A DNA stretch of 64,000 nt. Origin: a phage. The notes beneath the pieces were generated by a model. It saw only the letters and a program-made list of their open reading frames with translations. It was not told the DNA's origin and did no database searches. Position numbers and translations under genes: made by a program. The number at the start of each line of letters is the position of its first letter. The stretch's first letter is position 1. Shown here piece after piece: positions 1 through 32,437 of this stretch. The stretch is taken from the sequence record PV808484.1; one strand, 5' to 3'.

Positions 1-216
1 CCGCACACTGTTAAAAAATGCAAGTCAAGTTTTATTTTCAGATGACGAGTATTTCAACAAAGACATTACAGGCGTGAAAAATTTAAAAGACGTGAAGGAT
101 GTTATCGGTATCCGTGGATCTTTACGTAAAGGTGACATATACGGTAACAAGGTGCAATATAAACTGTCAAAAGATTATGATTTTACTTTGACAATTATCA
201 ATTAAGGGATCACAAA

Positions 217-375
217 ATGAAAACTTGCCAATGTGGTAAAAAGTCTATCTCTGGTTTAAAACGTGGCGTTGCTCTTTGTCAATATCACTATAACGCTCAA
301 ACGTGGGGTAAGCAGTGGGCGGATCAGATGGAAGAGGCAAAGAAAGAAAATATAAAAGTAGTTGCAAAGAAATAA
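217..375 (+). CDS. small Cys-rich protein (52 aa), possible zinc-binding
   Basis: ATG 217, stop 373-375; CQCG...CQYH spacing; below the 60 aa ORF-track cutoff. Confidence 0.35.
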   Translation: MKTCQCGKKSISGLKRGVALCQYHYNAQTWGKQWADQMEEAKKENIKVVAKK

Positions 376-400
376 AAATAAAGTAAACTGTATTCATCAA

Positions 401-422
401 GGCGGTGGAATAGCCCACCGCC
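401..422 (+). promoter_or_regulatory. GC-rich leader hairpin (GGCGGTGG-loop-CCACCGCC) just upstream of the start codon at 447
   Basis: 8 bp perfect stem read directly; same position as the conserved leader hairpins further downstream. Confidence 0.4.
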
Positions 423-446
423 TAACAAAGAGAAGAGGAAAACATC

Positions 447-617
447 ATGATCACTTTCGCTACCCGTGAAGCCGCTCGCAACGTTGCACGTAAAGTTAAC
501 GCCGCCAACCTGGGCGCTACGTTTAAAGCCCCGGTGAAAGATGAGTCAGGAAAATGGATCTTCCCTGGTCTGCGTCACGCTGATAAGCTGGGAACATTAA
601 CGTTAAAAAATAAATAA
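447..617 (+). CDS. hypothetical protein (56 aa)
   Basis: ATG 447 preceded by AGAAGAGGAA RBS-like purine run; stop 615-617. Confidence 0.35.
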   Translation: MITFATREAARNVARKVNAANLGATFKAPVKDESGKWIFPGLRHADKLGTLTLKNK

Positions 618-624
618 GATCCGC

Positions 625-683
625 TTGACAGTAGCATGATTTATAAGTAAAGTAACAACAACGGCGGGAAATGGTTTCCCGCC
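625..683 (+). promoter_or_regulatory. TTGACA-type promoter plus conserved leader hairpin GGCGGGA-AATGGTT-TCCCGCC (663-683)
   Basis: TTGACA at 625-630; identical 21 nt hairpin recurs at 2973, 4856 and 5715; followed by conserved ATCAATAAAGAGATAAG and ATG 704. Confidence 0.5.
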
Positions 684-703
684 ATCAATAAAGAGATAAG
701 ATT

Positions 704-1063
704 ATGAAATCAGTAAAAGCAATCAAAACTTACATTGTATCGGCTATTTCTTTTGAAGGTACTACAACCGAAAAAGAAAAAATCACCGAACTGATGCGCC
801 GTTTTAATTCTGAATACTGGTATCCCGATAATCAAAAACGTTACAATTATAACGTGATCAAGGCGATAGCCTCATGGTTACAAGGTTTACCGTCAGACAT
901 TAACATCGCCTTTGATTATAACGAGATCGATCACTTGTTAATTGAATGGAAGTACATAAAAGAAACAAGCAAAGAAACAACCGTTACCCGTGAGCGGGAA
1001 AATTATTGGTTATATATTGCAAGCATGATCGTAATCCTGGCAAAACAGCATAACGTGGCGTAA
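704..1063 (+). CDS. hypothetical protein
   Basis: ORF track; start directly after conserved leader. Confidence 0.5.
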   Translation: MKSVKAIKTYIVSAISFEGTTTEKEKITELMRRFNSEYWYPDNQKRYNYNVIKAIASWLQGLPSDINIAFDYNEIDHLLIEWKYIKETSKETTVTRERENYWLYIASMIVILAKQHNVA

Positions 1064-1078
1064 TTAAGAGGAAGAAAC

Positions 1079-1216
1079 ATGAACGCATCACAGCAGATCG
1101 AAAAATTCAACCGCAGCAAGGCGCGTAAAGATTGGAACGAAGAGATCACCAAAAAAGGCGACAAGCGGAACAAAACAAAAAGAGATCGCAGCACAAAAAG
1201 ACACTGGAACGAATAA
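1079..1216 (+). CDS. small basic protein (45 aa)
   Basis: AAGAGG RBS, ATG 1079; Lys/Arg-rich; followed by terminator. Confidence 0.35.
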   Translation: MNASQQIEKFNRSKARKDWNEEITKKGDKRNKTKRDRSTKRHWNE

Positions 1217-1223
1217 CAAAAAA

Positions 1224-1244
1224 GGGCGCAATAAGCGCCCTTTT
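1224..1244 (+). terminator. intrinsic terminator hairpin GGGCGC-AATAA-GCGCCC plus T-run
   Basis: read directly. Confidence 0.6.
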
Positions 1245-1334
1245 AGCTTATATAGAGGCTTGTTACCCATAGGCAATGGTAACGCCAGGGCAAGCCTATA
1301 AACAACGTTAGACGGCTTTACAGGAGCTTTAAAA

Positions 1335-1517
1335 ATGAGATTAGAAGAAATAAGCAAGGCACTAGCCCAGGGGCAAAGGTTATGCGCCAGATATCGTGAT
1401 CAATATGGCTTCATAACTAGCGGCGTGATCCTGGGGATTGAAGGCAATAAGATTTTTATTGACACGTTGAAAAACGTTGTATATAGTGACAATATAATCT
1501 CAATAAAACATATATGA
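1335..1517 (+). CDS. hypothetical protein
   Basis: ORF track. Confidence 0.4.
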   Translation: MRLEEISKALAQGQRLCARYRDQYGFITSGVILGIEGNKIFIDTLKNVVYSDNIISIKHI

Positions 1518-1525
1518 GGCAAGAA

Positions 1526-1927
1526 ATGAAAAACTTATTGATCGCTGGTTTACTCTCTTTTGGTATGGTTGGAACATCTAGCGCGGCGATATCCTCCACA
1601 GTAGCAGAATTAAGCGCCGTTGATGCAATGGAAAACGTCATGCTTATTAATAATGCGATCCCCGATGAAATCATGGAGGATTCACACATGATCGCTTATG
1701 GTGCTGTTACACAACTAACGGCAAAAATAGATAAATCTATTGTTAATGGCTTAAATGAAGATGTACCATGTGAAATTATTACCAGTGTGCTTACTACTCA
1801 AAATTTTACGCCGTGGTTAAAAAGTATTCAAAAAGTACACAGTACAGCCGCAGATCGTAGCAATGAAAAACTAGTGTCAGCACTTGCAACGTATACCCTA
1901 GCAAAATGCACCGAGATAAAAGATTGA
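1526..1927 (+). CDS. hypothetical secreted protein (N-terminal signal-peptide-like segment)
   Basis: start moved to the ATG at 1526 (MKNLLIAGLLSFGMVGTSSAA hydrophobic leader). Confidence 0.45.
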   Translation: MKNLLIAGLLSFGMVGTSSAAISSTVAELSAVDAMENVMLINNAIPDEIMEDSHMIAYGAVTQLTAKIDKSIVNGLNEDVPCEIITSVLTTQNFTPWLKSIQKVHSTAADRSNEKLVSALATYTLAKCTEIKD

Positions 1928-1974
1928 CAACATAGAAAGCACGTTATAAGATACACACAACAAAGGAGAACTAC

Positions 1975-2277
1975 ATGAACGGCATAGCTAAAACGTTTTT
2001 TCTTTTTTCTGGTGTAAATGATCCATCAATAAAAGTCGATAGTGTAAAAGAAAACAATACTATCACCGCTAAATTGTTTCAAGATGAAACAAATAACGTG
2101 CTAATCATTAATCTTAAAGAAATAACTAAAGGTTATTATACTATTGCTTACCATGCAATCTATCATGCTGGTACTAGTGAGGAAGTGCAAACAAGCAACA
2201 ACGAAAGCGCGGCGCTACCTGGTGATCTGGTGCTGGGCGTTATCAGTTTAATTGTCAATGATTTTTTTAAGGAGTAA
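1975..2277 (+). CDS. hypothetical protein
   Basis: ORF track; AAAGGAG RBS. Confidence 0.45.
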   Translation: MNGIAKTFFLFSGVNDPSIKVDSVKENNTITAKLFQDETNNVLIINLKEITKGYYTIAYHAIYHAGTSEEVQTSNNESAALPGDLVLGVISLIVNDFFKE

Positions 2278-2606
2278 AACCATGCCCTATTTACATTTAT
2301 TTTTCGGTATCTTATTGACAGGATCTTTTTTCTTCTGTATGCTTGTTTCTATTGTAAACCACGTTTTAAGACATTAAGGAAACAGCATGAAAATTATTCC
2401 CGTACAATATAGCGTAATAAATCCAGCATACGAGGAAGGAAGGAAAACAAGCATGGCTTTATGTTGTATTGCTACTATAGCCATGTTGTTATGCATTGTG
2501 TTTTAATAGGTTTTATAGTTGTACGCTTTAAAGGCTTGACAATTTTTTGTTATGCTTTAAACTATATCTTGAAAACGGCAAAGGCCGCAAACAAAAGGGT
2601 AAAATT

Positions 2607-2930
2607 ATGAAATCTGTGATCGGTGTTTATTTGGATAACTCTGATTTTTTCTATCATCGCGCTCGTTTCCTTGATGCGATTGAAATGATAGAATCAGGCT
2701 TTAAAGAGTATCGCCTTGCACATGATGACCTGGAAGCATTACAGGGCAATAGTGTTTTTACATTGCAAGCTAAAGCACTATGCAAAAGCCGGATCGACAT
2801 TGCGAGCAAAAAGATAGAACGCGGCATGTCCTGGTTGCGCACCGCAGAAATCAACATGGGGCAATGGTACGGCGAAAACTTAGAAAATAAACATGCTTTT
2901 GTCAATGTAGAAAATATTGAAGATTATTGA
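2607..2930 (+). CDS. hypothetical protein
   Basis: start at internal ATG 2607 after promoter-like TTGACA at 2536. Confidence 0.45.
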   Translation: MKSVIGVYLDNSDFFYHRARFLDAIEMIESGFKEYRLAHDDLEALQGNSVFTLQAKALCKSRIDIASKKIERGMSWLRTAEINMGQWYGENLENKHAFVNVENIEDY

Positions 2931-2993
2931 TTGACAGCACACCTAACGGGTAGTATATTGTATCTCATAGAGCGGGGAAATGGTTTCCCCGCC
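2931..2993 (+). promoter_or_regulatory. promoter TTGACA-17-TATATT plus conserved leader hairpin GCGGGGA-AATGGTT-TCCCCGC (2973-2993)
   Basis: read directly; followed by ATCAATAAAGAGATAAG and ATG 3013. Confidence 0.55.
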
Positions 2994-3012
2994 ATCAATA
3001 AAGAGATAAGCT

Positions 3013-3297
3013 ATGAAGATCACAAAAGCACTTTCCAACTATGCAGCACGTCGCGGATTATGTTTAACCGTTGAAAATTTAGGGAAAGAAGATTTTTTGT
3101 GCTTTTGGGAGCTTGAGAATGATAATGAGTGGATCTTCTCTTATTCTATCTGCGAAGATCAAAACGGTTGTTTATTAACCTGGCGCGGTAATATCTATCT
3201 ACCGGAAGAAATCAAAGAAGAATTACCAGGCACGATCATGACTGAGAAACAGCTTAAGGAAGTGATCAATTTTGTAGGGCAAAACATTAAAAAATAA
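3013..3297 (+). CDS. hypothetical protein
   Basis: ORF track. Confidence 0.5.
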   Translation: MKITKALSNYAARRGLCLTVENLGKEDFLCFWELENDNEWIFSYSICEDQNGCLLTWRGNIYLPEEIKEELPGTIMTEKQLKEVINFVGQNIKK

Positions 3298-3355
3298 TTT
3301 GACAGCAGAAAAACAACGTAGTAAAGTTTATCACATAGGGCGGCAATAGTGCCGC
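3298..3355 (+). promoter_or_regulatory. TTGACA promoter plus leader hairpin GCGGCA-ATAG-TGCCGC
   Basis: read directly; precedes ATG 3379. Confidence 0.45.
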
Positions 3356-3378
3356 TCATAACAGAAGAGAAACAAATC

Positions 3379-3549
3379 ATGATCCCGACTATGTTTTATG
3401 TATCGCGCAAAGGTCACAATATTTTTTGGTCTGAAGATTTAAATGAAGCCATGACGTTTGCCCGTGATCGTGTTGCTATCGGTGGCGTTAACATTACTGT
3501 AACCGATGAAAATGGCATTGAATACTATAACGGCGACGATGAAGAGTAA
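3379..3549 (+). CDS. hypothetical protein (56 aa)
   Basis: internal ATG of ORF 3349..3549, lying after the leader hairpin. Confidence 0.4.
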   Translation: MIPTMFYVSRKGHNIFWSEDLNEAMTFARDRVAIGGVNITVTDENGIEYYNGDDEE

Positions 3550-3556
3550 TTAACAA

Positions 3557-3575
3557 GGCGGGGAGTATTCCCGCC
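3557..3575 (+). promoter_or_regulatory. leader hairpin GGCGGG-GAGTATT-CCCGCC followed by GTCAATAAAGGATAA and ATG 3595
   Basis: read directly; variant of the conserved leader cassette. Confidence 0.45.
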
Positions 3576-3594
3576 GTCAATAAAGGATAATATC

Positions 3595-3732
3595 ATGAAA
3601 ACTTTCAACGCAACAGCATCAACAATTGGTTATATTATCACCGTGCAAGCTATTGATCTAGTAGCTGCAACAAACAAGATTAAAAACATGATCCCTGTAG
3701 GCAGTGATTTTTCCGTTTGGGAAGTAAAATAA
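3595..3732 (+). CDS. hypothetical protein (45 aa)
   Basis: ATG after leader cassette; below ORF-track cutoff. Confidence 0.35.
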   Translation: MKTFNATASTIGYIITVQAIDLVAATNKIKNMIPVGSDFSVWEVK

Positions 3733-3735
3733 ATC

Positions 3736-3797
3736 TTGACAGTGATTTGTTATTTGATAAGATGTACTACGTAGGGCGTGGCAATAAGGCAACGCCC
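3736..3797 (+). promoter_or_regulatory. TTGACA promoter plus leader hairpin GGGCGT...ACGCCC
   Basis: read directly; precedes ATG 3819. Confidence 0.45.
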
Positions 3798-3818
3798 CAC
3801 ATCAGAAAGGGAAAGATT

Positions 3819-4055
3819 ATGACTATAGCAACAGTATTAACCGCCGTTAAAACCGCCGAATCATCCGGCTTGCATGTTGAGATTATAGATCAACCAGGTG
3901 GCGATCTCCTTGTCCAGGTTTACCCGCCGAAAGTAGGGGATGATTATTATTGGTGCTATTCTGATACGTTCGAACAAGTAGACACGAAAGCGATCACGGC
4001 TTTTATTTTAAAAGCTATTGAAGAAAATAACTTTCATTATAACATCAATCAATAA
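3819..4055 (+). CDS. hypothetical protein
   Basis: internal ATG of ORF 3717..4055; the upstream part of that ORF overlaps the promoter. Confidence 0.45.
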   Translation: MTIATVLTAVKTAESSGLHVEIIDQPGGDLLVQVYPPKVGDDYYWCYSDTFEQVDTKAITAFILKAIEENNFHYNINQ

Positions 4056-4097
4056 ACCATAAGCGGGGCAGTAACGCCCACTAATGAGGGTAAAATC

Positions 4098-4202
4098 ATG
4101 TTAGAGAAAATTTTCACGGTTGTAGTAGTGGGCCTGGCGTTATCGGTTGGAGTGGTTGCAACTATGGCTAACATGATTCTATCTTCTCACGGTATTGGAT
4201 AA
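4098..4202 (+). CDS. small hydrophobic protein (34 aa)
   Basis: ATG 4098; predicted single transmembrane helix. Confidence 0.3.
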   Translation: MLEKIFTVVVVGLALSVGVVATMANMILSSHGIG

Positions 4203-4212
4203 GGTGAATCAA

Positions 4213-4428
4213 ATGATCACGAATAAGACAGGTAAAACAGAATTTTTACGCGGCTTGCAAATAGGTAAACCTGAGATCTGGCATTGCACTAAATCCGCGC
4301 ATAATGAAATGAAAGATTTTACCGCTACTTTACAACGTGTTAAAATATCTATCACACAGAAAAAAGCCTTGTTAGTAGTAGAAAACGAGATCCCGCAAAC
4401 TATTATTATTGTCGAGCGTACAGCATGA
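4213..4428 (+). CDS. hypothetical protein
   Basis: ORF track, start at internal ATG 4213. Confidence 0.4.
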   Translation: MITNKTGKTEFLRGLQIGKPEIWHCTKSAHNEMKDFTATLQRVKISITQKKALLVVENEIPQTIIIVERTA

Positions 4429-4811
4429 AAACAGAAATCATTATTGAAATCATCAACGGTTATAAAGAAGCCTTTATTTTTGCTGAATCCGCCAGGGATC
4501 ATGAAGGTAATTTTATTGATAACTTGACTGATTATGATTTTTCAGATCAAGCCCATCAGCGGATCATTCATGACGTAGCGGCTTATTGTGATGCCAATGA
4601 TGCCGCTATCTCTGAGGCAATGAGCGACGGCGCAACAGCCAACCAGATCGGGAATGATTTACATTTTACCCGTAATAGTCACGGCGTAGGCTTTTGGGAT
4701 CGCCCTGAAATATACACTACTAACACCGCCAACCGCTTAACTAATGCAGCTAAATTGATGCCATCGGTGCATGCTTACATTGGTGAAGATAATTTGATTT
4801 ATATTGAATAA
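4425..4811 (+). CDS. hypothetical protein
   Basis: ORF track; ATGA stop-start overlap with upstream gene. Confidence 0.5.
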   Translation: MKTEIIIEIINGYKEAFIFAESARDHEGNFIDNLTDYDFSDQAHQRIIHDVAAYCDANDAAISEAMSDGATANQIGNDLHFTRNSHGVGFWDRPEIYTTNTANRLTNAAKLMPSVHAYIGEDNLIYIE

Positions 4812-4817
4812 AAAGTA

Positions 4818-4876
4818 TTGACACCGATCCCCAATATGGTACTATTTACCACGTAGGCGGGAAATGGTTTCCCGCC
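4818..4876 (+). promoter_or_regulatory. promoter TTGACA-17-TACTAT plus conserved leader hairpin GGCGGGA-AATGGTT-TCCCGCC (4856-4876)
   Basis: read directly. Confidence 0.55.
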
Positions 4877-4899
4877 AGGTAATCAAAAAGGTAAATACT

Positions 4900-5289
4900 A
4901 TGCGCAACCTGGTTTCTGTTTCTAACGTTGAAAAATTTCAATCTTTACAGGGTATCGTTAACAACGTAGCGCCTTTTTTAGTCAACGGCTTGATTGCAAA
5001 GATGAAAAATAAACATCATGCGGCATGGTCTGCTTACTGCTTTGATAATGATGAAAAAGCGGCTGAAATGATGTTAAATATGCTGTTAGACAGTGTAGAA
5101 TCATCTTTACCGGAAAACATCGCAGAAGAGATCACCTATCGTTATAATATGGCGATCACTTACCAGGAGGTTGCGCAATTTAATATGATGGACGATGACG
5201 AACAACAGGATCAGGAAATTTTCTGGGAGTATGCAGATCGTCAATCGGCTTTTGATGAAAAGTTAGCGATGTATTATAACGAATATTAA
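4900..5289 (+). CDS. hypothetical protein
   Basis: start moved to ATG 4900; the ORF-track start at 4864 lies inside the leader hairpin. Confidence 0.45.
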   Translation: MRNLVSVSNVEKFQSLQGIVNNVAPFLVNGLIAKMKNKHHAAWSAYCFDNDEKAAEMMLNMLLDSVESSLPENIAEEITYRYNMAITYQEVAQFNMMDDDEQQDQEIFWEYADRQSAFDEKLAMYYNEY

Positions 5290-5306
5290 TACACGGTAAA
5301 AGAAAG

Positions 5307-5329
5307 GGGCGCACTAAGCGCCCTTTTTT
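5307..5329 (+). terminator. intrinsic terminator GGGCGC-ACTAA-GCGCCC plus T-run
   Basis: read directly. Confidence 0.6.
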
Positions 5330-5675
5330 GTATTCTTTTTTCACAATGGAAGCGACACGTAAAGAATAGGCGTAAAAGGTGGCGTAAAACCATCTAAAAC
5401 CGACTGTAACCGCTTAAACAAGGCAGGGATGATTAATCCCCTTACCAGGATGAAAAAGCTGTTAGAGAGCTATTCATAGCGTTTAAAGCACATAGGAAAT
5501 AATTTGCTTTTTATCTTGCCTTTTATCCTGCTTTTGATTATTATTATGGAACGGGCGGCACCTGGGGACAGGGGAAGATAATCACCGGAAGATCCCGCTA
5601 TATATTGATAGCTAATACCTATTAAACAACAAAACATCAAAGGGATAAACTATCAAATCTTTACAATCCTACCTA

Positions 5676-5735
5676 TTGACACACGATCACCCTTATACTA
5701 ATATGTATCCCGTAGGCGGGAAATGGTTTCCCGCT
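5676..5735 (+). promoter_or_regulatory. TTGACA promoter plus conserved leader hairpin (5715-5735)
   Basis: read directly; precedes ATG 5754. Confidence 0.5.
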
Positions 5736-5753
5736 TGATATAGGAATCATACC

Positions 5754-5984
5754 ATGATCGAACAAATTAAAAGCACTCAAAATGTTAACGGCAATGTGTT
5801 CCACTTTATCGGCAATAAAGGAAAAGGCGTACCCTACGCCGCCGTAACCGTGCAACCTAATGGCGATTATTGGTTTACCGTGTACGGATCATACTCTTTC
5901 GGACGCCCGGCACATGATAAGATCTTGCAAGCGGTTAAACCTGCGGGGAAGAATATTACAGCAGAAAAATTTTATAAAAAATAG
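5754..5984 (+). CDS. hypothetical protein
   Basis: ORF track. Confidence 0.5.
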   Translation: MIEQIKSTQNVNGNVFHFIGNKGKGVPYAAVTVQPNGDYWFTVYGSYSFGRPAHDKILQAVKPAGKNITAEKFYKK

Positions 5985-6059
5985 CTTGCTTTATTTCTTC
6001 TGTTAACTTATAGTTATCGCGTAGGGCAAACAATTTTAAACGGTAGACGAGGAATCACC

Positions 6060-6443
6060 ATGAGCAATATCATCAACCTGGCAGCGACTGTAAACGGTAA
6101 AGACTTTAACGGCGCTGTAGACCGTGATCCTATGTGGTGCTTATCAGTGTTTAAAGGCGATCTGGTTGAAGTTAGAACAACCGAAGGGTATAGCGATGAT
6201 TATAAATGCGAGATCCATTTACATAACTGGTACACGGGGAAAACTTATGCGCTGAATCACGCGTTTATCGGGAAAATTGAATATCGCGAGATGATCGACG
6301 ATGAAACGGGGCAAGATTTTAGTGATTATGTTTATATTCGTTCAGAAACATTAGCCGAACGTTTGATCGAGAAAATGAAAGCAAAAAATAAAATTAATTT
6401 AGCTCATTGGCTTGATATAACAAATGATCCGGCTTACAAGTAA
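6060..6443 (+). CDS. hypothetical protein
   Basis: ORF track; GAGGAA RBS. Confidence 0.5.
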   Translation: MSNIINLAATVNGKDFNGAVDRDPMWCLSVFKGDLVEVRTTEGYSDDYKCEIHLHNWYTGKTYALNHAFIGKIEYREMIDDETGQDFSDYVYIRSETLAERLIEKMKAKNKINLAHWLDITNDPAYK

Positions 6444-6459
6444 ATAACATTTCATACCA

Positions 6460-6485
6460 GGGCGCACAAAGCGCCCTTTCTTTTT
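6460..6485 (+). terminator. intrinsic terminator GGGCGC-ACAAA-GCGCCC plus T-run
   Basis: read directly. Confidence 0.6.
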
Positions 6486-6742
6486 ACCTAAATAAAGATG
6501 ATAGCTTTTACCTATCAAAAACATTCACCGAAAAAAGTGAATAGATCGCGGTATCGAGCTAATCAAGGAGCAGATGAACAACCATACCATGAAGATCATA
6601 AGGCGCTTACAACGTGTTTTAAACCGCTTATTTTTAATTTCTCCATGTAACTATCTGGCAAAAACAGCCTTTTTCGTGTCTTTCCTCTTAAGTGATAATC
6701 ATTCTTATTTATAGCTGATTATTTATGCAATAAACTGCATAA

Positions 6743-6762
6743 TGCAATAATGATAATCATTC
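6743..6762. repeat. Fur-box-like iteron (AATGCAATAATGATAATCATT)
   Basis: shares the ATGATAATCATT core with the copies at 7629 and 7817; a shorter copy lies at 6694-6704. Confidence 0.45.
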
Positions 6763-7176
6763 TTAACTTATGACCATCTAACCTATAAAATAATAAGTTA
6801 TCTAACTAAATTAAAGCTAATTATTTCACCTTTATTTATAACTTACTGTTACTATCTCATTGATAACCTTATATTAAACAACAATAACTAATATAAATCA
6901 TTACTAAGCTAAATATAATCTATCTAACCTTTAAAACTATAACTATAATCTATCGAATTGTTGCACAAAGTAACTATTAAATTGTTAGTAACATTACTAA
7001 ATAATTCATATCCTATCTATTTATGATCTAATCTTTACTTTCCTATCTATTACCTAAATAATCCTATCATACAGTTACCATTTCATGTAATAATCATTTC
7101 ATACAATAACTATAACAAGAAATATAATTCGCAAGCGTATCATTAGCAGCCTATGCCGGACACATAGGCGGCTAAT

Positions 7177-7312
7177 AATAACGCAACTACACACCCCACA
7201 TAATAACCATCACCGATAGTTATTATTTGTGCTTATGTAGCTTGCAACAATTGCAAGCGCAACAATATACATGGTATATTGTATCCCTTACATTGTTGCG
7301 GTGCGTTATTAT
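7177..7312. repeat. long-range inverted repeat (GCTAATAATAACGCAAC / GTTGCGGTGCGTTATTATTAGC) enclosing palindromes
   Basis: read directly; inner palindromes GCCTATG-N7-CATAGGC and GCTTGCAA-CAA-TTGCAAGC. Confidence 0.4.
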
Positions 7313-7628
7313 TAGCTAATGTTTGGAACATTGGCTATAATATAAGCTAAATAATAAGCTATTCAATAATAAACATAATGAATAATGACACTGATGATCA
7401 TAATGCGCCACCTTCCAGGGGGCGCTATGTGAACACAAAGAAATCTTTCTTGTCAAGAAAAATATTAACACTATTGCGCAAAATTATTTATGTCTGAATA
7501 GATGATTTTTCATACTATTGTTATTATTTATCGGCCCTAACTATTGCCTATTTGTTGAGCCTACTTTCTTAAAAGCGCAATAAATCAGAATTATCTTGAT
7601 TTTTAGGGTGTTTTATAGTATAGAAAAT

Positions 7629-7649
7629 ATGCAAATGATAATCATTATC
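7629..7649. repeat. Fur-box-like iteron GCAAATGATAATCATTATC
   Basis: about 17 of 19 positions match the enterobacterial Fur box consensus GATAATGATAATCATTATC. Confidence 0.45.
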
Positions 7650-7816
7650 AGCTATCTTCCACGGGTGGCACTATTTCACGCAGGATCATTTCATTTGGCA
7701 AGGTGTATATAGATGTTTAGACTTGCCAAGCCATTGATTTACTTAGAATTTATCTGTTTTGTTGTGAGTAGTACCTTTCTTGCTCAGAAAATAATCAAAA
7801 GTCTTATAAGTCATTG

Positions 7817-7845
7817 AATGATAATGCAAATGATAATTATTCTCA
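7817..7845. repeat. Fur-box-like iteron pair GAATGATAATGCAAATGATAATTATTCTC
   Basis: read directly. Confidence 0.45.
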
Positions 7846-8206
7846 TTGATATTTGAGGGGGACGGTCGGCAGAAATCGGGGGGCGCTGAAAATCGCGTTA
7901 AGCACCTCTCGCAAGCGAGCAGTATTTTGCGGCAAGTTATTGATATTATTGGCTTTACGCTTATGGAAAGGGGGTGTGTCGAAATAAATCGGGTATACCG
8001 GAAAATTTTTGTGGCATAGATATTTATTTGTCTATATTATGTACAAAGGGGTGTGTTAAAAATATTAGGTATATATAGAATAATTGATAGGGAAATCCTA
8101 TACTAATTCCTCCATTAATGATGTTTCTATGTTGCTGTTCTTGTAACAGATGAAAAGACGCTGTATGATGTGTAGCATGAAACGTAAATTTATAAAGGAG
8201 TCTGAT

Positions 8207-8575
8207 ATGTGTGTTCCTCTTAGCAGTCCTCTGCTGTTAGAATTTTACAAAGCATGGATGGAAGATCATTCCTCAATGCATCGTGAGAATGTTGGTTTGT
8301 GTAATTGCCTTATGGATTACCTGGCAACCACTATGTCAAAGAAAAAGCCTACGGAAGAAGATATAGAATATTTCAAGATGGTTCGTAGCAAAACGCTGAA
8401 AGAGATGAAACTGCAATTCACGTGTGCTGGGCTATCCTCCTTCCTACCCTTTAATTATGATCTTCTATGTTATGAAGATGAAGGTAAGACACATTCTTGC
8501 CATACCAACCCAAAGAGATTGCAGTGGGTGAAAGATCGTATTGCCGATTCATGTTTGGTGTTAGGGGGGTGGTAA
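8207..8575 (+). CDS. hypothetical protein, paralog family A member 1 (Cys/His-rich)
   Basis: AAGGAG RBS; shared motifs FYKAW, GLCxCL, FTCAGL, LPFN, CHTN, LQWVKDRI with three other genes. Confidence 0.5.
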   Translation: MCVPLSSPLLLEFYKAWMEDHSSMHRENVGLCNCLMDYLATTMSKKKPTEEDIEYFKMVRSKTLKEMKLQFTCAGLSSFLPFNYDLLCYEDEGKTHSCHTNPKRLQWVKDRIADSCLVLGGW

Positions 8576-8943
8576 TGAAAAGTAATATTCCGTTGAGTAG
8601 TGCAGCTTTAATACGATTCTATAAAGCATGGATTGCCAACCATCCGGCAATGAATCGCACAACGAGTGGCTTGTGTGGTTGTCTGGTAGATTATGTAGAT
8701 GATTTTGTTGGCGAGGTAACTAGAGAAGAAGATAAAAGATGGCGTGATCGTTTGTTGGATAGTTTGAAATACGAAATGAGGAAACAATTTACATGTGCAG
8801 GACTGGACTACAATCTTCCGTTCAATGTAGATTGCATGGATTACCTTTCAGAGTGTATAGACTTGGCGTGTCATACCAACACGTTACGTCTTCAATGGGT
8901 GAAAGACAGAATCGAAGATGCAAATAATGCTTGCATTGAATAG
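8575..8943 (+). CDS. hypothetical protein, paralog family A member 2
   Basis: ATGA overlap start; same motif set as 8207..8575. Confidence 0.5.
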   Translation: MKSNIPLSSAALIRFYKAWIANHPAMNRTTSGLCGCLVDYVDDFVGEVTREEDKRWRDRLLDSLKYEMRKQFTCAGLDYNLPFNVDCMDYLSECIDLACHTNTLRLQWVKDRIEDANNACIE

Positions 8944-9014
8944 AAATGTCTGTACACTGTGTTCCATAAGATATGCAATATCGCGCATAACAAAACTACT
9001 AATGAGAGGTGTAA

Positions 9015-20371: not shown

Positions 20372-20377
20372 CACATA

Positions 20378-20400
20378 AACCCGCTTCGGCGGGTTTTCTT
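20378..20400 (+). terminator. intrinsic terminator AAACCCGC-TTCG-GCGGGTTT plus T-run
   Basis: read directly. Confidence 0.6.
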
Positions 20401-22525: not shown

Positions 22526-22564
22526 ATAAAGCCCCTGTTTGGGGCTTTGGTTAAGTTTTACGGA

Positions 22565-24702: not shown

Positions 24703-24784
24703 GCTAAACTCCTCTTCTGTTTTTCTGTAGTCTATTCGAAAAAACTGGTGTTGTCAACAAAAAACCCGCCGAAGCGGGTTTATA

Positions 24785-27532: not shown

Positions 27533-28105
27533 TTAATGTGTTAATGAAACTGCGTAGCTAAACACAGGTTCAGATATTACATCGGCTACAGTAATAAAAA
27601 CGTCTTCGTCTTGAGTTGTTTCTACACGACATACAGTTACACCATTCACCACGAATTCAACGCAATGTGGAATATTTTCACAAACGAAGGTAGTGTAAGT
27701 AACACCCAAAGCATCATACAAAGATTTAACAGTGTTTGCAAGTGCCGCAGTTTCTTCTTTTTCTGAGACAATGAATGCTGTAACAACAAGATTGTTTGCA
27801 TAGTTTAGACTGTCCTCTATAGCCAATGATTTACAAGGTAGTAATGCAAAATATTTACCTGGTTTAATCAGACCTGCTTCCCATTGATTCAAAATTGCCT
27901 GGGATGGTTTAGTAATATAAAACAGATTTTCACTTGGGTTATCAATATTACTTCTGGCGATACAACGTGAAGGATTATTAATATCAAACACATGATCAAA
28001 ATCTACACAAACAGGTAAACTGAAAGGTGTGAATTTTTTACCTAATAATCCTATGGCTGATAATATGTTTGCTGTGCTTATCTTCCCGTTAAAAGCTAAA
28101 CGCAT
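27533..28105 (-). CDS. hypothetical protein
   Basis: ORF track. Confidence 0.45.
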   Translation of the reverse strand: MRLAFNGKISTANILSAIGLLGKKFTPFSLPVCVDFDHVFDINNPSRCIARSNIDNPSENLFYITKPSQAILNQWEAGLIKPGKYFALLPCKSLAIEDSLNYANNLVVTAFIVSEKEETAALANTVKSLYDALGVTYTTFVCENIPHCVEFVVNGVTVCRVETTQDEDVFITVADVISEPVFSYAVSLTH

Positions 28106-28116
28106 ATTTAACTCCT

Positions 28117-28320
28117 TTAACTAGCAACCGTAACTTCCGAACTTTCTTCTTTCGTACTGTCTACGATATGCCTGGTGGCAATATACGAGACTTGCCAGTT
28201 ACCATCTGGTGTAGTCTCAATAAGTACCCTATCTACTTCGAGAAAATGCAAAAATTCAACCATCGCTCGCTTCGATAGGAATTGTTTTTTAACAGTCTCC
28301 TCAAAAGATTGAACTGCCAT
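28117..28320 (-). CDS. hypothetical protein
   Basis: ORF track. Confidence 0.4.
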   Translation of the reverse strand: MAVQSFEETVKKQFLSKRAMVEFLHFLEVDRVLIETTPDGNWQVSYIATRHIVDSTKEESSEVTVAS

Positions 28321-28329
28321 GTTTCCTCC

Positions 28330-28992
28330 TTATTTAATATTCAATTTTGCACAAAGACGTTGTACCGCTTTGGCATCGAACAAACTCCCACGAATAGTTC
28401 TCTTTCCTGATTCATTCAGATGCTTTGCAATCGTCATATATGGCGTTTTACAAGCTCTGTATGCAACTAAAGAATCTTTTAAAGAAAGCGCAAACTCTCT
28501 TGAGCGTTTTGCTTCTTCCGTTTTCGTATAATCTGTTCTTTTGTATTTAGGGTTTGCTGCACCAAGAAGCGTTCCCTTCGCTTTTGCTACCTTAAGGCTC
28601 TTCTTAACACGATCAGATATTGCACGAGCCTCTTCTTCTGCCAGAACTGCTAAAATATTTATTATCATATTTTCAGCGGAGGGCATAGTTGCTATTCGTA
28701 CATTAATCATCTCTAACAAGGTTGCAACAGAAGCTGTGTTACGTCCAAGACGGTCAACCTTAGCAACAACAAGTGTAGCACCTGTTTCTTTGCAAAGATT
28801 AACAGCTTTTACAAGCTCTCTACGTTGCTTCCAATCGCCTTTACCCGAATAAAACTCTGCAAAGCTACCTACAATAGTATAATTTTCTTGTGAATCCAGG
28901 AAGCGTTGAATATCTGCTTCCTGTGATTCTATACCATACTGGTTGCCTTGTTGTTTCTTCTTAGAAAGTCGATGATATAGTACAAACTTCAT
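28330..28992 (-). CDS. serine recombinase (resolvase/invertase family)
   Basis: N-terminal YHRLSKKKQ (catalytic Ser), VVAKVDRLGRN, SDRVKKSLKVAKAKG; C-terminal HTH-like tail. Confidence 0.75.
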   Translation of the reverse strand: MKFVLYHRLSKKKQQGNQYGIESQEADIQRFLDSQENYTIVGSFAEFYSGKGDWKQRRELVKAVNLCKETGATLVVAKVDRLGRNTASVATLLEMINVRIATMPSAENMIINILAVLAEEEARAISDRVKKSLKVAKAKGTLLGAANPKYKRTDYTKTEEAKRSREFALSLKDSLVAYRACKTPYMTIAKHLNESGKRTIRGSLFDAKAVQRLCAKLNIK

Positions 28993-29049
28993 AATACCCT
29001 CCTGTTCTGTTACAGGAAGTATGCACTACCTTAATGTTAAAGTCAACAG

Positions 29050-29253
29050 TTAAGTAGTGGTAATATCATCCTCTTGAATACCAGGGTCAACTTCTGCAAA
29101 GATAGCCTCTACAGGAATTTCTTCACCTGCTATTCTAGAAAGAAGCACTGAACCAATAGCTTTTGCGTGTTCTTCGGATTCCGCATAAACATTAGTTCCT
29201 GTGTCTTTTTTCTTAGTTTCGTTAAAATATACCAGATAGTAATTGTATGCCAT
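29050..29253 (-). CDS. hypothetical protein
   Basis: ORF track. Confidence 0.4.
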   Translation of the reverse strand: MAYNYYLVYFNETKKKDTGTNVYAESEEHAKAIGSVLLSRIAGEEIPVEAIFAEVDPGIQEDDITTT

Positions 29254-29504
29254 TATTCATCCCAATCGTTGTTACGAGCACTTTCAAGAACCTTGACAAC
29301 TTCTGCATACTCTACAGCTAAACCAGCACACACTTCAGCTTGTTTTGCAATTGCTTGTTTAAAGAACATAGCGATTGCAACACTCTGTGTTGTGTGAATG
29401 TTATCTGCTTTAGTTGATACATGAAGATCAAAATCTTCTTCATCAAAGGTGAGTTCCATAGTAACAATAAATTTCTCGGTCATAAAAATGCTCCTCTTAA
29501 ACAA
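29253..29504 (-). CDS. hypothetical protein
   Basis: ORF track. Confidence 0.4.
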   Translation of the reverse strand: MFKRSIFMTEKFIVTMELTFDEEDFDLHVSTKADNIHTTQSVAIAMFFKQAIAKQAEVCAGLAVEYAEVVKVLESARNNDWDE

Positions 29505-32399: not shown

Positions 32400-32416
32400 G
32401 TTTGCACTCCTTATAA

Positions 32417-32434
32417 AAGGGGCTTTCGCCCCTT
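32417..32434 (-). terminator. terminator hairpin GGGGCTTTCGCCCC
   Basis: recurrent element. Confidence 0.5.
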
Positions 32435-32437
32435 TGT

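What the first reader, a model, noticed from the sequence alone, without database searches (positions are those of the whole stretch)
28330..28992. Serine recombinase within the metabolism block of an apparently virulent phage
The 220 aa protein has the N-terminal catalytic signature YHRLSKKKQ, the VDRLGRN block and a C-terminal HTH-like tail. No integrase, repressor or attachment-site features are visible nearby. It could resolve concatemers, drive a DNA inversion switch located elsewhere, or mark a small acquired mobile cassette. The flanking small ORFs at 28117-28320 and 29050-29504 have no assignable function.
Basis: partly seen in the sequence, partly recalled or inferred. Interest (0 to 1): 0.45.

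Follow-up and report, generated by a model that had tools for sequence, protein, structure and literature searches.

The report
Phi92-type phage serine recombinase gene
This is a real, catalytically intact site-specific serine recombinase gene, already annotated in databases as phi92 gp053, that every phi92-like lytic coliphage keeps under purifying selection; I found no DNA-inversion switch or recently acquired cassette, and its DNA target is still unknown.

Summary
The ORF at 28330-28992 (-) exists exactly as described and encodes a 220-aa serine recombinase (Pfam Resolvase, 78 bits). The window is a phi92-like Justusliebigvirus and the gene is the phi92 gp053 orthologue, annotated since 2012 as a putative resolvase/invertase.

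- **Conservation:** it is 99-100% identical in all 56 close relatives and is kept across the subfamily (78% in KP13-26, about 57% in Phapecoctavirus). dN/dS is about 0.06.
- **Catalysis:** the catalytic residues hold down to about 30% identity.
- **Architecture:** the catalytic domain is followed by only the first half of the "Recombinase" domain of large serine recombinases. There is no HTH_7 and no zinc ribbon. The best structural neighbours are Bxb1, TP901-1 and SPbeta.
- **Invertase reading not supported:** I found no bounding inverted repeats. All assemblies are collinear over about 53 kb, including the tail-fibre cluster, and four whole genomes are collinear.
- **Recent-cassette reading not supported:** composition is normal, synteny with KP13-26 is conserved, and the gene is universally present.

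My best guess, which is inferred and not shown, is that an early-expressed enzyme carries out resolution- or cyclization-type recombination at a single unidentified site on the DTR-ended genome. The gene is ordinary and already known; only its function is open.

The parts
28330..28992 (-). Serine recombinase gene, 220 aa, orthologue of phi92 gp053 (YP_009012384.1)
   Evidence: ORF; Pfam and PHROG; 99.5% identical to phi92 gp053
28570..28983 (-). Catalytic domain plus long helix E (residues 4-141)
   Evidence: PF00239 match over residues 4-141. AF2 shows an alpha/beta fold with helix 108-138. Y6, R8 and S10 are nearly invariant (>=90%); Q24, D80, R81, R84, E121 and R128 are invariant in 29 homologues down to 31% identity
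28963..28965 (-). Codon of the presumed catalytic serine (S10, TCT)
   Evidence: Read from the sequence; it sits in the Y-x-R-x-S motif, conserved in at least 90% of A1 sequences
28345..28527 (-). C-terminal four-helix DNA-binding module (residues 156-216), equivalent to the first half of the large-serine-recombinase 'Recombinase' domain
   Evidence: AF2 helices. PF07508 matches in 21 of 29 homologues, covering profile positions about 4-51 of 102 at the extreme C-terminus, four of them above the gathering score. No HTH_7 hit
29018..29046 (-). Sigma-70-like promoter TTGACT-N17-CATACT directly upstream of the gene (activity inferred)
   Evidence: Scan hit with 9 of 12 matches. An equivalent TTGACA-N17/18 -10 element lies upstream of the orthologue in KP13-26, L017, phAPEC8, PsgM04F/phiWec181, Tr1 and a Vibrio phage

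Best explanation
SHOWN: the ORF encodes a catalytically competent small serine recombinase, the orthologue of phi92 gp053. It belongs to an almost exclusively viral clade with this architecture: catalytic domain, then helix E, then only the first (helix-turn-helix) half of the 'Recombinase' domain of large serine recombinases. It has no zinc-ribbon or coiled-coil domain and no HTH_7. It is a vertically inherited core gene of Stephanstirmvirinae under strong purifying selection. It is not associated with an invertible segment.

INFERRED: it is transcribed from its own host-type promoter in the early/middle DNA-metabolism cluster, about 20 kb from the left physical end of a genome that carries 343-bp direct terminal repeats.

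MOST LIKELY MECHANISM (inferred, no site found): dimers bind a short dyad site of roughly 26-30 bp that is present once per genome unit. They synapse two directly repeated copies, either in the two terminal repeats of incoming linear DNA or in neighbouring units of replicative multimers. They then carry out a deletion/resolution-type exchange through the usual phosphoserine double-strand-break and subunit-rotation chemistry, giving monomeric circles. This is a resolvase or Cre/lox-like cyclization role, not inversion or integration.

The confidence of 0.4 is for the whole statement. Identity and catalytic competence stand at about 0.95; the resolution/cyclization role at about 0.3.
For: Identity: Pfam 78 bits and PHROG 125. 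Catalytic set: Q24, D80, R81, R84, E121 and R128 are invariant and Y6, R8 and S10 nearly invariant (>=90%) across 29 homologues at 31-88% identity.

Core gene: 56 of 56 Justusliebigvirus records at 99-100% aa identity; 78% in KP13-26 with identical gene order; about 57% in Phapecoctavirus; 50% in Citrobacter phage Tr1. Selection: dN/dS 0.06 against KP13-26, and 5 synonymous to 1 non-synonymous change within the genus.

Own promoter conserved across lineages while the neighbouring genes are not. Distant viral homologues sit in replication/recombination modules: endonuclease VII x6, RecE-like x4, RusA x4, DprA-like.

The genome has defined ends. phi92 annotates a 343-bp DTR that maps to window 7558-7900. 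A single-site reaction needs no repeated site within one genome copy, which fits the lack of repeats.
Against: No cognate site was identified. The only dyad upstream of the gene (13 of 18 complementary) is not conserved in relatives at 87% and 78% protein identity. The dyads inside the DTR match the E. coli Fur-box consensus (17 of 19) and sit in operator position behind a promoter, so they are better explained as regulator sites.

From established knowledge, other phages with direct terminal repeats (T7, T5, N4, SPO1) need no site-specific recombinase. The promoter match is ordinary, and the region is not enriched for promoter-like sites over shuffles (54 against 44 +/- 6.6). No experimental data exist; the papers mention the gene only at annotation level.
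Confidence: 0.4

Rival explanations
1. DNA invertase (the RefSeq/PHROG label): it flips a phage segment bounded by inverted sites, for example a tail-fibre or promoter switch elsewhere in the genome.
For: PHROG 125 'DNA invertase' is the best PHROG. A weak, full-length match to the Mpi 'master invertase' model, an enzyme that acts in trans on distant sites. One 0.88-kb module is inverted in phage PD211 relative to three other genomes.
Against: There is no inverted-repeat pair beyond shared terminator hairpins in the window or in a complete genome. All of about 56 assemblies are collinear over the 25 kb around the gene, the 25-kb tail-fibre/tailspike/polymerase block and the terminal region; every record with two places is simply cut at a record end. 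Four complete genomes plus the window are collinear. The PD211 module has no bounding inverted repeats, is only 93% identical and lies in a mosaic region. There is no HTH_7 domain. The Mpi score is 32.6 against a cut-off of 272. 123 immediate neighbours (one on each side) of about 65 distant homologues include no tail-fibre genes, and those loci have no flanking inverted repeats.
Confidence: 0.07
2. The enzyme acts on host DNA, or on competing mobile elements, rather than on the phage genome. It could rearrange, excise or break a host locus as part of takeover or counter-defence.
For: It appears to be expressed early from a host-type promoter. No site is detectable in the phage genome. The gene is conserved without any conserved partner gene.
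Against: There is no hit to known defence or anti-defence families. Homologues occur in phages of very different hosts (Vibrio, Shewanella, Cellulophaga, Arthrobacter), so no common host target is evident. There is no precedent that I know of, and this could not be tested here.
Confidence: 0.15
3. A selfish or moron-like gene: an autonomous promoter-plus-gene unit that persists and occasionally relocates without contributing to phage replication.
For: It has its own promoter. The neighbouring genes are unrelated between genera. In Phapecoctavirus the gene sits in a different early cluster and in the opposite orientation relative to the nrd block.
Against: It is universally retained, with dN/dS of about 0.06 and conserved catalytic residues. 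It shows no terminal repeats, no target duplications and no compositional signal. Its position is fixed in all 56 close relatives and in KP13-26.
Confidence: 0.1
4. A domesticated DNA-binding protein, either a transcription regulator or an architectural factor, that no longer recombines DNA.
For: No recombination product of any kind is visible in comparative data. From established knowledge, resolvases commonly double as repressors.
Against: The full catalytic constellation (Y6, R8, S10, D80, R81, R84, E121, R128) is invariant or nearly invariant down to 31% identity, which would not be expected without catalysis. The upstream dyad that could have served as an operator is not conserved.
Confidence: 0.08
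5. An integrase that supports a cryptic temperate or plasmid-like lifestyle.
For: PHROG 95 'integrase' is the second-best PHROG. The structure is closest to large serine integrases.
Against: It is 220 aa and lacks the second half of the recombinase domain, the zinc ribbon and the coiled coil that define integrases. Only 21 distant loci (29-41% identity) exist in 185,579 species genomes, none of them enterobacterial, so there are no prophage copies. No repressor or partition genes lie nearby. One paper reports a related phage matching only phage genomes, with no prophage matches (PMC10282059).
Confidence: 0.02

Closest known systems
Large serine recombinases/integrases (Bxb1, TP901-1, SPbeta SprA, phiC31; CcrB)
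   Different: It is only 220 aa. It stops after about half of the recombinase domain and has no zinc-ribbon or coiled-coil domain, which is the part that, from established knowledge, selects att-site pairs and sets directionality. The CcrB score is 35.6 against a cut-off of 900. There is no attP/attB context and there are no prophage copies.
Small resolvases (gamma-delta/Tn3 resolvase, Sin)
   Same: Same size class, same catalytic fold and residues. Profile hits to Sin 3.4e-17, Tn3 7.5e-17 and gamma-delta 1e-15. The proposed reaction type, resolution between direct repeats, is the same.
   Different: There is no HTH_7 domain. No multi-subsite res region lies upstream: the intergenic gap is only 57 bp and its dyad is not conserved. 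The gene is not part of a transposon or plasmid.
DNA invertases (Hin, Gin, Cin, Pin) and the Bacteroides master invertase Mpi
   Same: The database label is 'DNA invertase'. The length is similar to Mpi, with a weak end-to-end match to the Mpi model. Like Mpi, it would have to act in trans at a distance.
   Different: There is no adjacent invertible segment, no inverted sites and no orientation isoforms in about 56 assemblies. The Gin match is weak (8e-4 for the single sequence). The Mpi score is far below the cut-off.
Cre/lox of phage P1 (functional analogy only; a tyrosine recombinase)
   Same: This is the proposed role: a phage-encoded site-specific recombinase that cyclizes terminally repeated incoming DNA and resolves multimers at a single site. 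It rests on established knowledge of P1 and was not tested here.
   Different: It belongs to a different enzyme superfamily. P1 is temperate and plasmid-borne. No lox-like site was found here.

Membership tests
Serine recombinase superfamily (PF00239) | Catalytic-domain profile match above the curated threshold | tested here: met
   78.3 bits against 23.3, residues 4-141; all 29 homologues match
Serine recombinase superfamily (PF00239) | Nucleophilic serine in the Y-x-R-x-S motif, plus the D-R-x-x-R and E/R helix-E residues | tested here: met
   Y6, R8, S10, D80, R81, R84, E121 and R128 are invariant or nearly invariant in A1
Serine recombinase superfamily (PF00239) | DNA cleavage and strand-exchange activity | not testable with these tools
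   Needs biochemistry; no published data were found
Small resolvase/invertase group (Tn3, gamma-delta, Hin, Gin) | C-terminal HTH_7-type (PF02796) DNA-binding domain | tested here: not met
   HTH_7 is not among the Pfam families listed for the window protein, for eight relatives shown individually, or in the top 25 families across all 29 homologues at E<=1; the tail matches PF07508 instead
Small resolvases (Tn3, gamma-delta, Sin) | Multi-subsite res region next to the gene | tested here: not met
   The upstream gap is only 57 bp. Its single dyad is absent in relatives at 87% and 78% identity, and PsgM04F/phiWec181 have a 10-bp gap
DNA invertases (Hin/Gin/Cin/Pin) | Invertible segment bounded by inverted crossover sites, usually next to the gene | tested here: not met
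   No such repeats in the window or a complete genome, nor around 80 distant homologues
DNA invertases (Hin/Gin/Cin/Pin) | Both orientations of a segment seen in populations or assemblies | tested here: not met
   About 56 assemblies are collinear over about 53 kb, and four whole genomes are collinear. The one inverted 0.88-kb module in PD211 lacks bounding repeats. Raw reads were not examined.
Mpi master invertase family (NF009949) | Score at or above the curated equivalog cut-off | tested here: not met
   32.6 bits against 272
Large serine recombinases/integrases | Full recombinase domain plus a zinc-ribbon domain with coiled coil; more than about 400 aa | tested here: not met
   220 aa. PF07508 is covered only over profile positions about 4-51 of 102. 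The model ends after four helices.
Large serine recombinases/integrases | LSR-type N-terminal motif and closest fold | tested here: met
   Insertion after S10; Bxb1, TP901-1 and SPbeta are the top structural hits
IS607-like serine transposases | MerR-like HTH placed N-terminal to the catalytic domain | tested here: not met
   The catalytic domain starts at residue 2-4 and the DNA-binding module is C-terminal

The most novel reading that the evidence does not exclude
A strictly virulent phage with direct terminal repeats uses a minimal 220-aa serine recombinase (catalytic domain plus half of a recombinase domain), made early from a host-type promoter. The enzyme would cyclize its incoming linear genome or reduce replicative multimers at one short site. 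That would be a Cre/lox-like step not described for lytic phages, carried out by the smallest LSR-derived architecture. Alternatively, the same enzyme could rearrange host DNA during takeover.
Probability: 0.2. Interest if true: 0.6.

Novelty: already known. Interest (0 to 1): 0.3.

Why it matters
There are three practical points.

1. **Phage-therapy screening.** Phi92-like and phAPEC8-like phages are being developed for therapy, and automated safety screens treat any recombinase as a lysogeny marker. The papers disagree: two ESCO5 papers report no specific recombinase genes in ESCO5/ESCO13 and in ESCO5/ESCO37 (PMC5374246, PMC10269720), while another calls the protein a concatemer 'resolvase' (PMC10282059). 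The data here show a non-integrase that is a core gene of a lytic lineage, with no prophage copies in 185,579 species genomes.

2. **An unexplained step in the infection cycle.** A catalytically intact recombinase kept under strong purifying selection in lytic phages implies some step in their infection cycle that has not been explained.

3. **Possible engineering interest.** The compact architecture, a catalytic domain with only the first half of a recombinase domain, may be useful as a minimal serine recombinase scaffold.

None of this makes the gene itself new.

Tried and rejected
1. **Upstream dyad as a res site or operator.** CACTACTTAA-N15-TTAAGGTAGTG lies over the -35 box (about 29024-29059) and is 13 of 18 complementary, p about 1e-4 per position. 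Rejected because the left arm is missing in KP13-26 and L017, while the promoter itself is conserved.

2. **SD-overlapping hairpin at 29000-17.** It is not conserved in relatives.

3. **The 0.88-kb segment inverted in PD211** (alia 74599-75474). It has no bounding inverted repeats, only an 8-bp direct TTGTAGAT. It is 93% identical and lies in a mosaic region where the adjacent gene has been replaced. I read it as module shuffling.

4. **Long inverted pairs in the complete genome.** All are shared rho-independent terminator hairpins or RBS/start regions. My reversed-sequence control was invalid, because reversal preserves inverted repeats, so that list was used only qualitatively.

5. **The 23-bp palindromes bracketing the terminal region as recombinase sites.** They match the Fur-box consensus and sit in operator position, and similar boxes occur in Phapecoctavirus. 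I read them as regulator sites, although recombinase binding is not formally excluded.

6. **A conserved partner gene.** The 67-70 aa upstream ORFs are not homologous across genera.

7. **The ~80-nt direct repeats as tRNA genes.** This was wrong: ARAGORN finds none. They are stem-loop/RBS cassettes in front of small ORFs.

8. The genome-contig scan with the 29-sequence alignment failed and was repeated with 7 sequences.

Full report
**1. Observation**

It matches the Pfam Resolvase N-terminal domain over residues 4-141 (78.3 bits against a cut-off of 23.3) and PHROG 125 'DNA invertase'. The small flanking ORFs match only PHROGs of unknown function. The stretch 29050-29504 is two ORFs.

**2. 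What the window is**

Six kilobases around the gene are 98-99.5% identical to 56 phage records. These are Escherichia phage phi92 and other Justusliebigvirus (subfamily Stephanstirmvirinae). The gene is the orthologue of phi92 gp053 (YP_009012384.1), annotated as 'putative recombinase, resolvase family protein / DNA invertase'. The feature is therefore already in the databases.

The literature I could search mentions it only at annotation level. One paper guesses it keeps 'concatemers as single genome'. Two others state that the related phages have no recombinase. I found no experiment.

**3. Is it a working enzyme?**

- In an alignment of 29 homologues at 31-88% identity, Q24, E46, G50, R57, D80, R81, R84, E121, R128 and G140 are invariant. 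Y6, R8 and S10 are nearly invariant.
- Against the Klebsiella phage KP13-26 orthologue, dN/dS is about 0.06. Within the genus I counted up to 5 synonymous changes against 1 non-synonymous change.
- The AlphaFold model is confident (pLDDT 89.4). It shows the alpha/beta catalytic fold, a long helix E (108-138) and a four-helix C-terminal module.

**4. What kind of serine recombinase?**

Single-sequence similarity to solved resolvases and invertases is weak: Sin 1e-5, Tn3 2e-5, Gin 8e-4. The N-terminus carries an insertion of about 13 residues after the serine, as in large serine recombinases.

No HTH_7 is detected. Instead, 21 of 29 homologues hit PF07508 'Recombinase', always over profile positions about 4-51 of 102 and at the very C-terminus, four of them above the gathering score.

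The protein is therefore a short form: a catalytic domain plus the first half of the large-serine-recombinase recombinase domain, without the zinc-ribbon and coiled-coil part.

**5. Distribution**

- The protein is 99-100% identical in all 56 Justusliebigvirus records.
- It is 78% identical in KP13-26, where the gene order is the same: HslV, gp057, methyltransferase, gp055, gp054, recombinase, gp052, gp051, phosphatase.
- It is about 57% identical in Phapecoctavirus, 50% in Citrobacter phage Tr1, and 33-38% in Vibrio myoviruses of about 128 kb.
- IMG/VR holds at least 591 relatives of the same size.
- A scan of 185,579 bacterial and archaeal species genomes gave only 21 distant loci, none enterobacterial.

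GC content at the gene (0.39) is within the local range. This is a vertically inherited core gene, not a recent cassette.

Between genera, however, the neighbours are unrelated. In Phapecoctavirus the gene lies in another early cluster and in the opposite orientation relative to the nrd block. So it has moved at least once.

What travels with it is a sigma-70-like promoter directly upstream. In the window this is TTGACT-N17-CATACT at 29018-29046, with equivalent TTGACA-N17/18 elements in six other lineages. The match itself is ordinary, so its activity is an inference from conservation.

**6. Inversion test**

- The window and a complete relative (Justusliebigvirus alia, 148,442 bp) contain no inverted-repeat pairs other than shared terminator hairpins and RBS/start regions.
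- As a proxy for inversion isoforms I compared independent assemblies. About 56 records are collinear over the 25 kb around the gene, the 25-kb tail-fibre/tailspike/polymerase block and the terminal region. Every record with two places is cut at a record end or at a terminal-repeat copy.
- Four complete genomes and the window are collinear throughout, with one exception. A 0.88-kb two-gene module with its divergent promoter is inverted in PD211. It has no bounding inverted repeats, is 93% identical, and lies in a mosaic region. I read it as module shuffling.
- Distant viral homologues have no flanking inverted repeats either. Their immediate neighbours are replication/recombination genes (endonuclease VII, RecE-like exonuclease, RusA, DprA-like), not tail fibres.

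The invertase label is thus not supported. Raw reads were not examined.

**7. Search for a site**

The upstream dyad that looked promising (13 of 18 complementary) is not conserved in close relatives, so I rejected it.

While looking for short dyads I found that window 6650-7900 is an ORF-free, AT-rich region. Its right-hand 343 bp (7558-7900) is the direct terminal repeat annotated in phi92. The phage therefore has defined linear ends, and the recombinase gene lies about 20 kb from the left end.

The terminal repeat and nearby intergenic DNA carry 23-bp palindromes. These match the E. coli Fur-box consensus at 17 of 19 positions, and there are 3 matches in the window against 0.07 expected. 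One sits just downstream of a promoter, in operator position. Similar boxes occur in a Phapecoctavirus. They are best read as regulator sites. Recombinase binding is not excluded, but nothing points to it.

**8. Mechanism**

Shown:
- an intact, selected serine recombinase of a phage-specific short clade;
- no inversion system;
- no integration module;
- defined terminal repeats on the genome.

Inferred:
- early expression from its own promoter;
- action on a single site per genome unit, giving resolution or cyclization between directly repeated copies. These copies could be the two terminal repeats or neighbouring units of multimers, analogous to P1 Cre/lox.

I give this role about 0.3. The rivals are a host-DNA target (0.15), a selfish moron-like gene (0.1), a non-catalytic DNA-binding role (0.08), an invertase (0.07) and an integrase (0.02).

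**9. Verdict**

The gene is already known and annotated. The only open question is what a conserved recombinase does in a lytic phage. Interest is modest at 0.3.

Noticed in passing
window 6650-7900 (DTR = 7558-7900): A ~1.2-kb ORF-free, AT-rich region with short iterated motifs (CCTATCTA and similar). Its right-hand 343 bp is 98% identical to the direct terminal repeat annotated in phi92, so the physical genome end lies inside the window at about 7900.
   Followed up: partly
window 6689-6711, 6746-6764, 7631-7654, 7827-7849; alia L005:30150-30312: Arrays of 23-bp palindromes that match the E. coli Fur-box consensus (best 17 of 19). There are 3 matches in the window against 0.07 expected by chance. 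One lies directly downstream of a promoter-like TTGATT-N17-TATAGA inside the DTR. At least five tandem copies occur in one intergenic region of a complete relative. This could mean iron/Fur control of early promoters, or Fur titration.
   Followed up: partly
L011:36102-36915 (PD211) vs L005:24599-25474 (alia); outside the window: A 0.88-kb module is inverted in phage PD211 relative to three other genomes. It holds two small genes, a divergent promoter and the 5' end of a third gene. It has no bounding inverted repeats, is 93% identical, and the adjacent gene has been replaced.
   Followed up: yes
window 663-717, 2974-3027, 4825-4876, 5684-5735: A repeated regulatory cassette sits directly before successive small + strand ORFs. 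It consists of the stem-loop GGCGGGAAA-TGG-TTTCCCGCC followed by CATCAATAAAGAGATAAG-ATG. There are 3 near-exact copies against 0 expected. It resembles the promoter/stem-loop cassettes linked to module shuffling in T4-type phages (that comparison is from memory). ARAGORN finds no tRNA genes in 1-9000.
   Followed up: partly
window 20375-20397, 24761-24783, 32416-32435, 22527-22549: Near-identical rho-independent terminator hairpins (AAACCCGC..GCGGGTTT and AAAGGGGCTTTCGCCCCTTT) are reused at many sites across the genome. They account for all long 'inverted repeat' hits.
   Followed up: yes
window 27533-28105 (-): gp051 carries the PHROG label 'histidyl tRNA synthetase' (phrog_4806). It is only 190 aa and has no Pfam hit, so the label looks unreliable.
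   Followed up: no
records MG065639, MG065645, MG065656, MG065689 (L013-L015): Four 'Campylobacter phage' records (marked UNVERIFIED) are about 98% identical to E. coli Justusliebigvirus genomes across their whole length. They are probably coliphage contaminants or mislabelled hosts.
   Followed up: no
L003:6716-9745; L100:2970-3702: In the Vibrio myoviruses the recombinase homologue lies just upstream of an ATPase annotated as histidine kinase/gyrase B-like (1.063.O and 277E43-1), which is followed by an annotated RIIB protein in 1.063.O. My reading of that ATPase as rIIA-like would place the gene in an early region there too.
   Followed up: no
window 29000-29017 (-): The hairpin TCCTGT-aacaga-ACAGGA overlaps the Shine-Dalgarno sequence of the recombinase gene. 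It is not conserved in KP13-26 or L017.
   Followed up: partly
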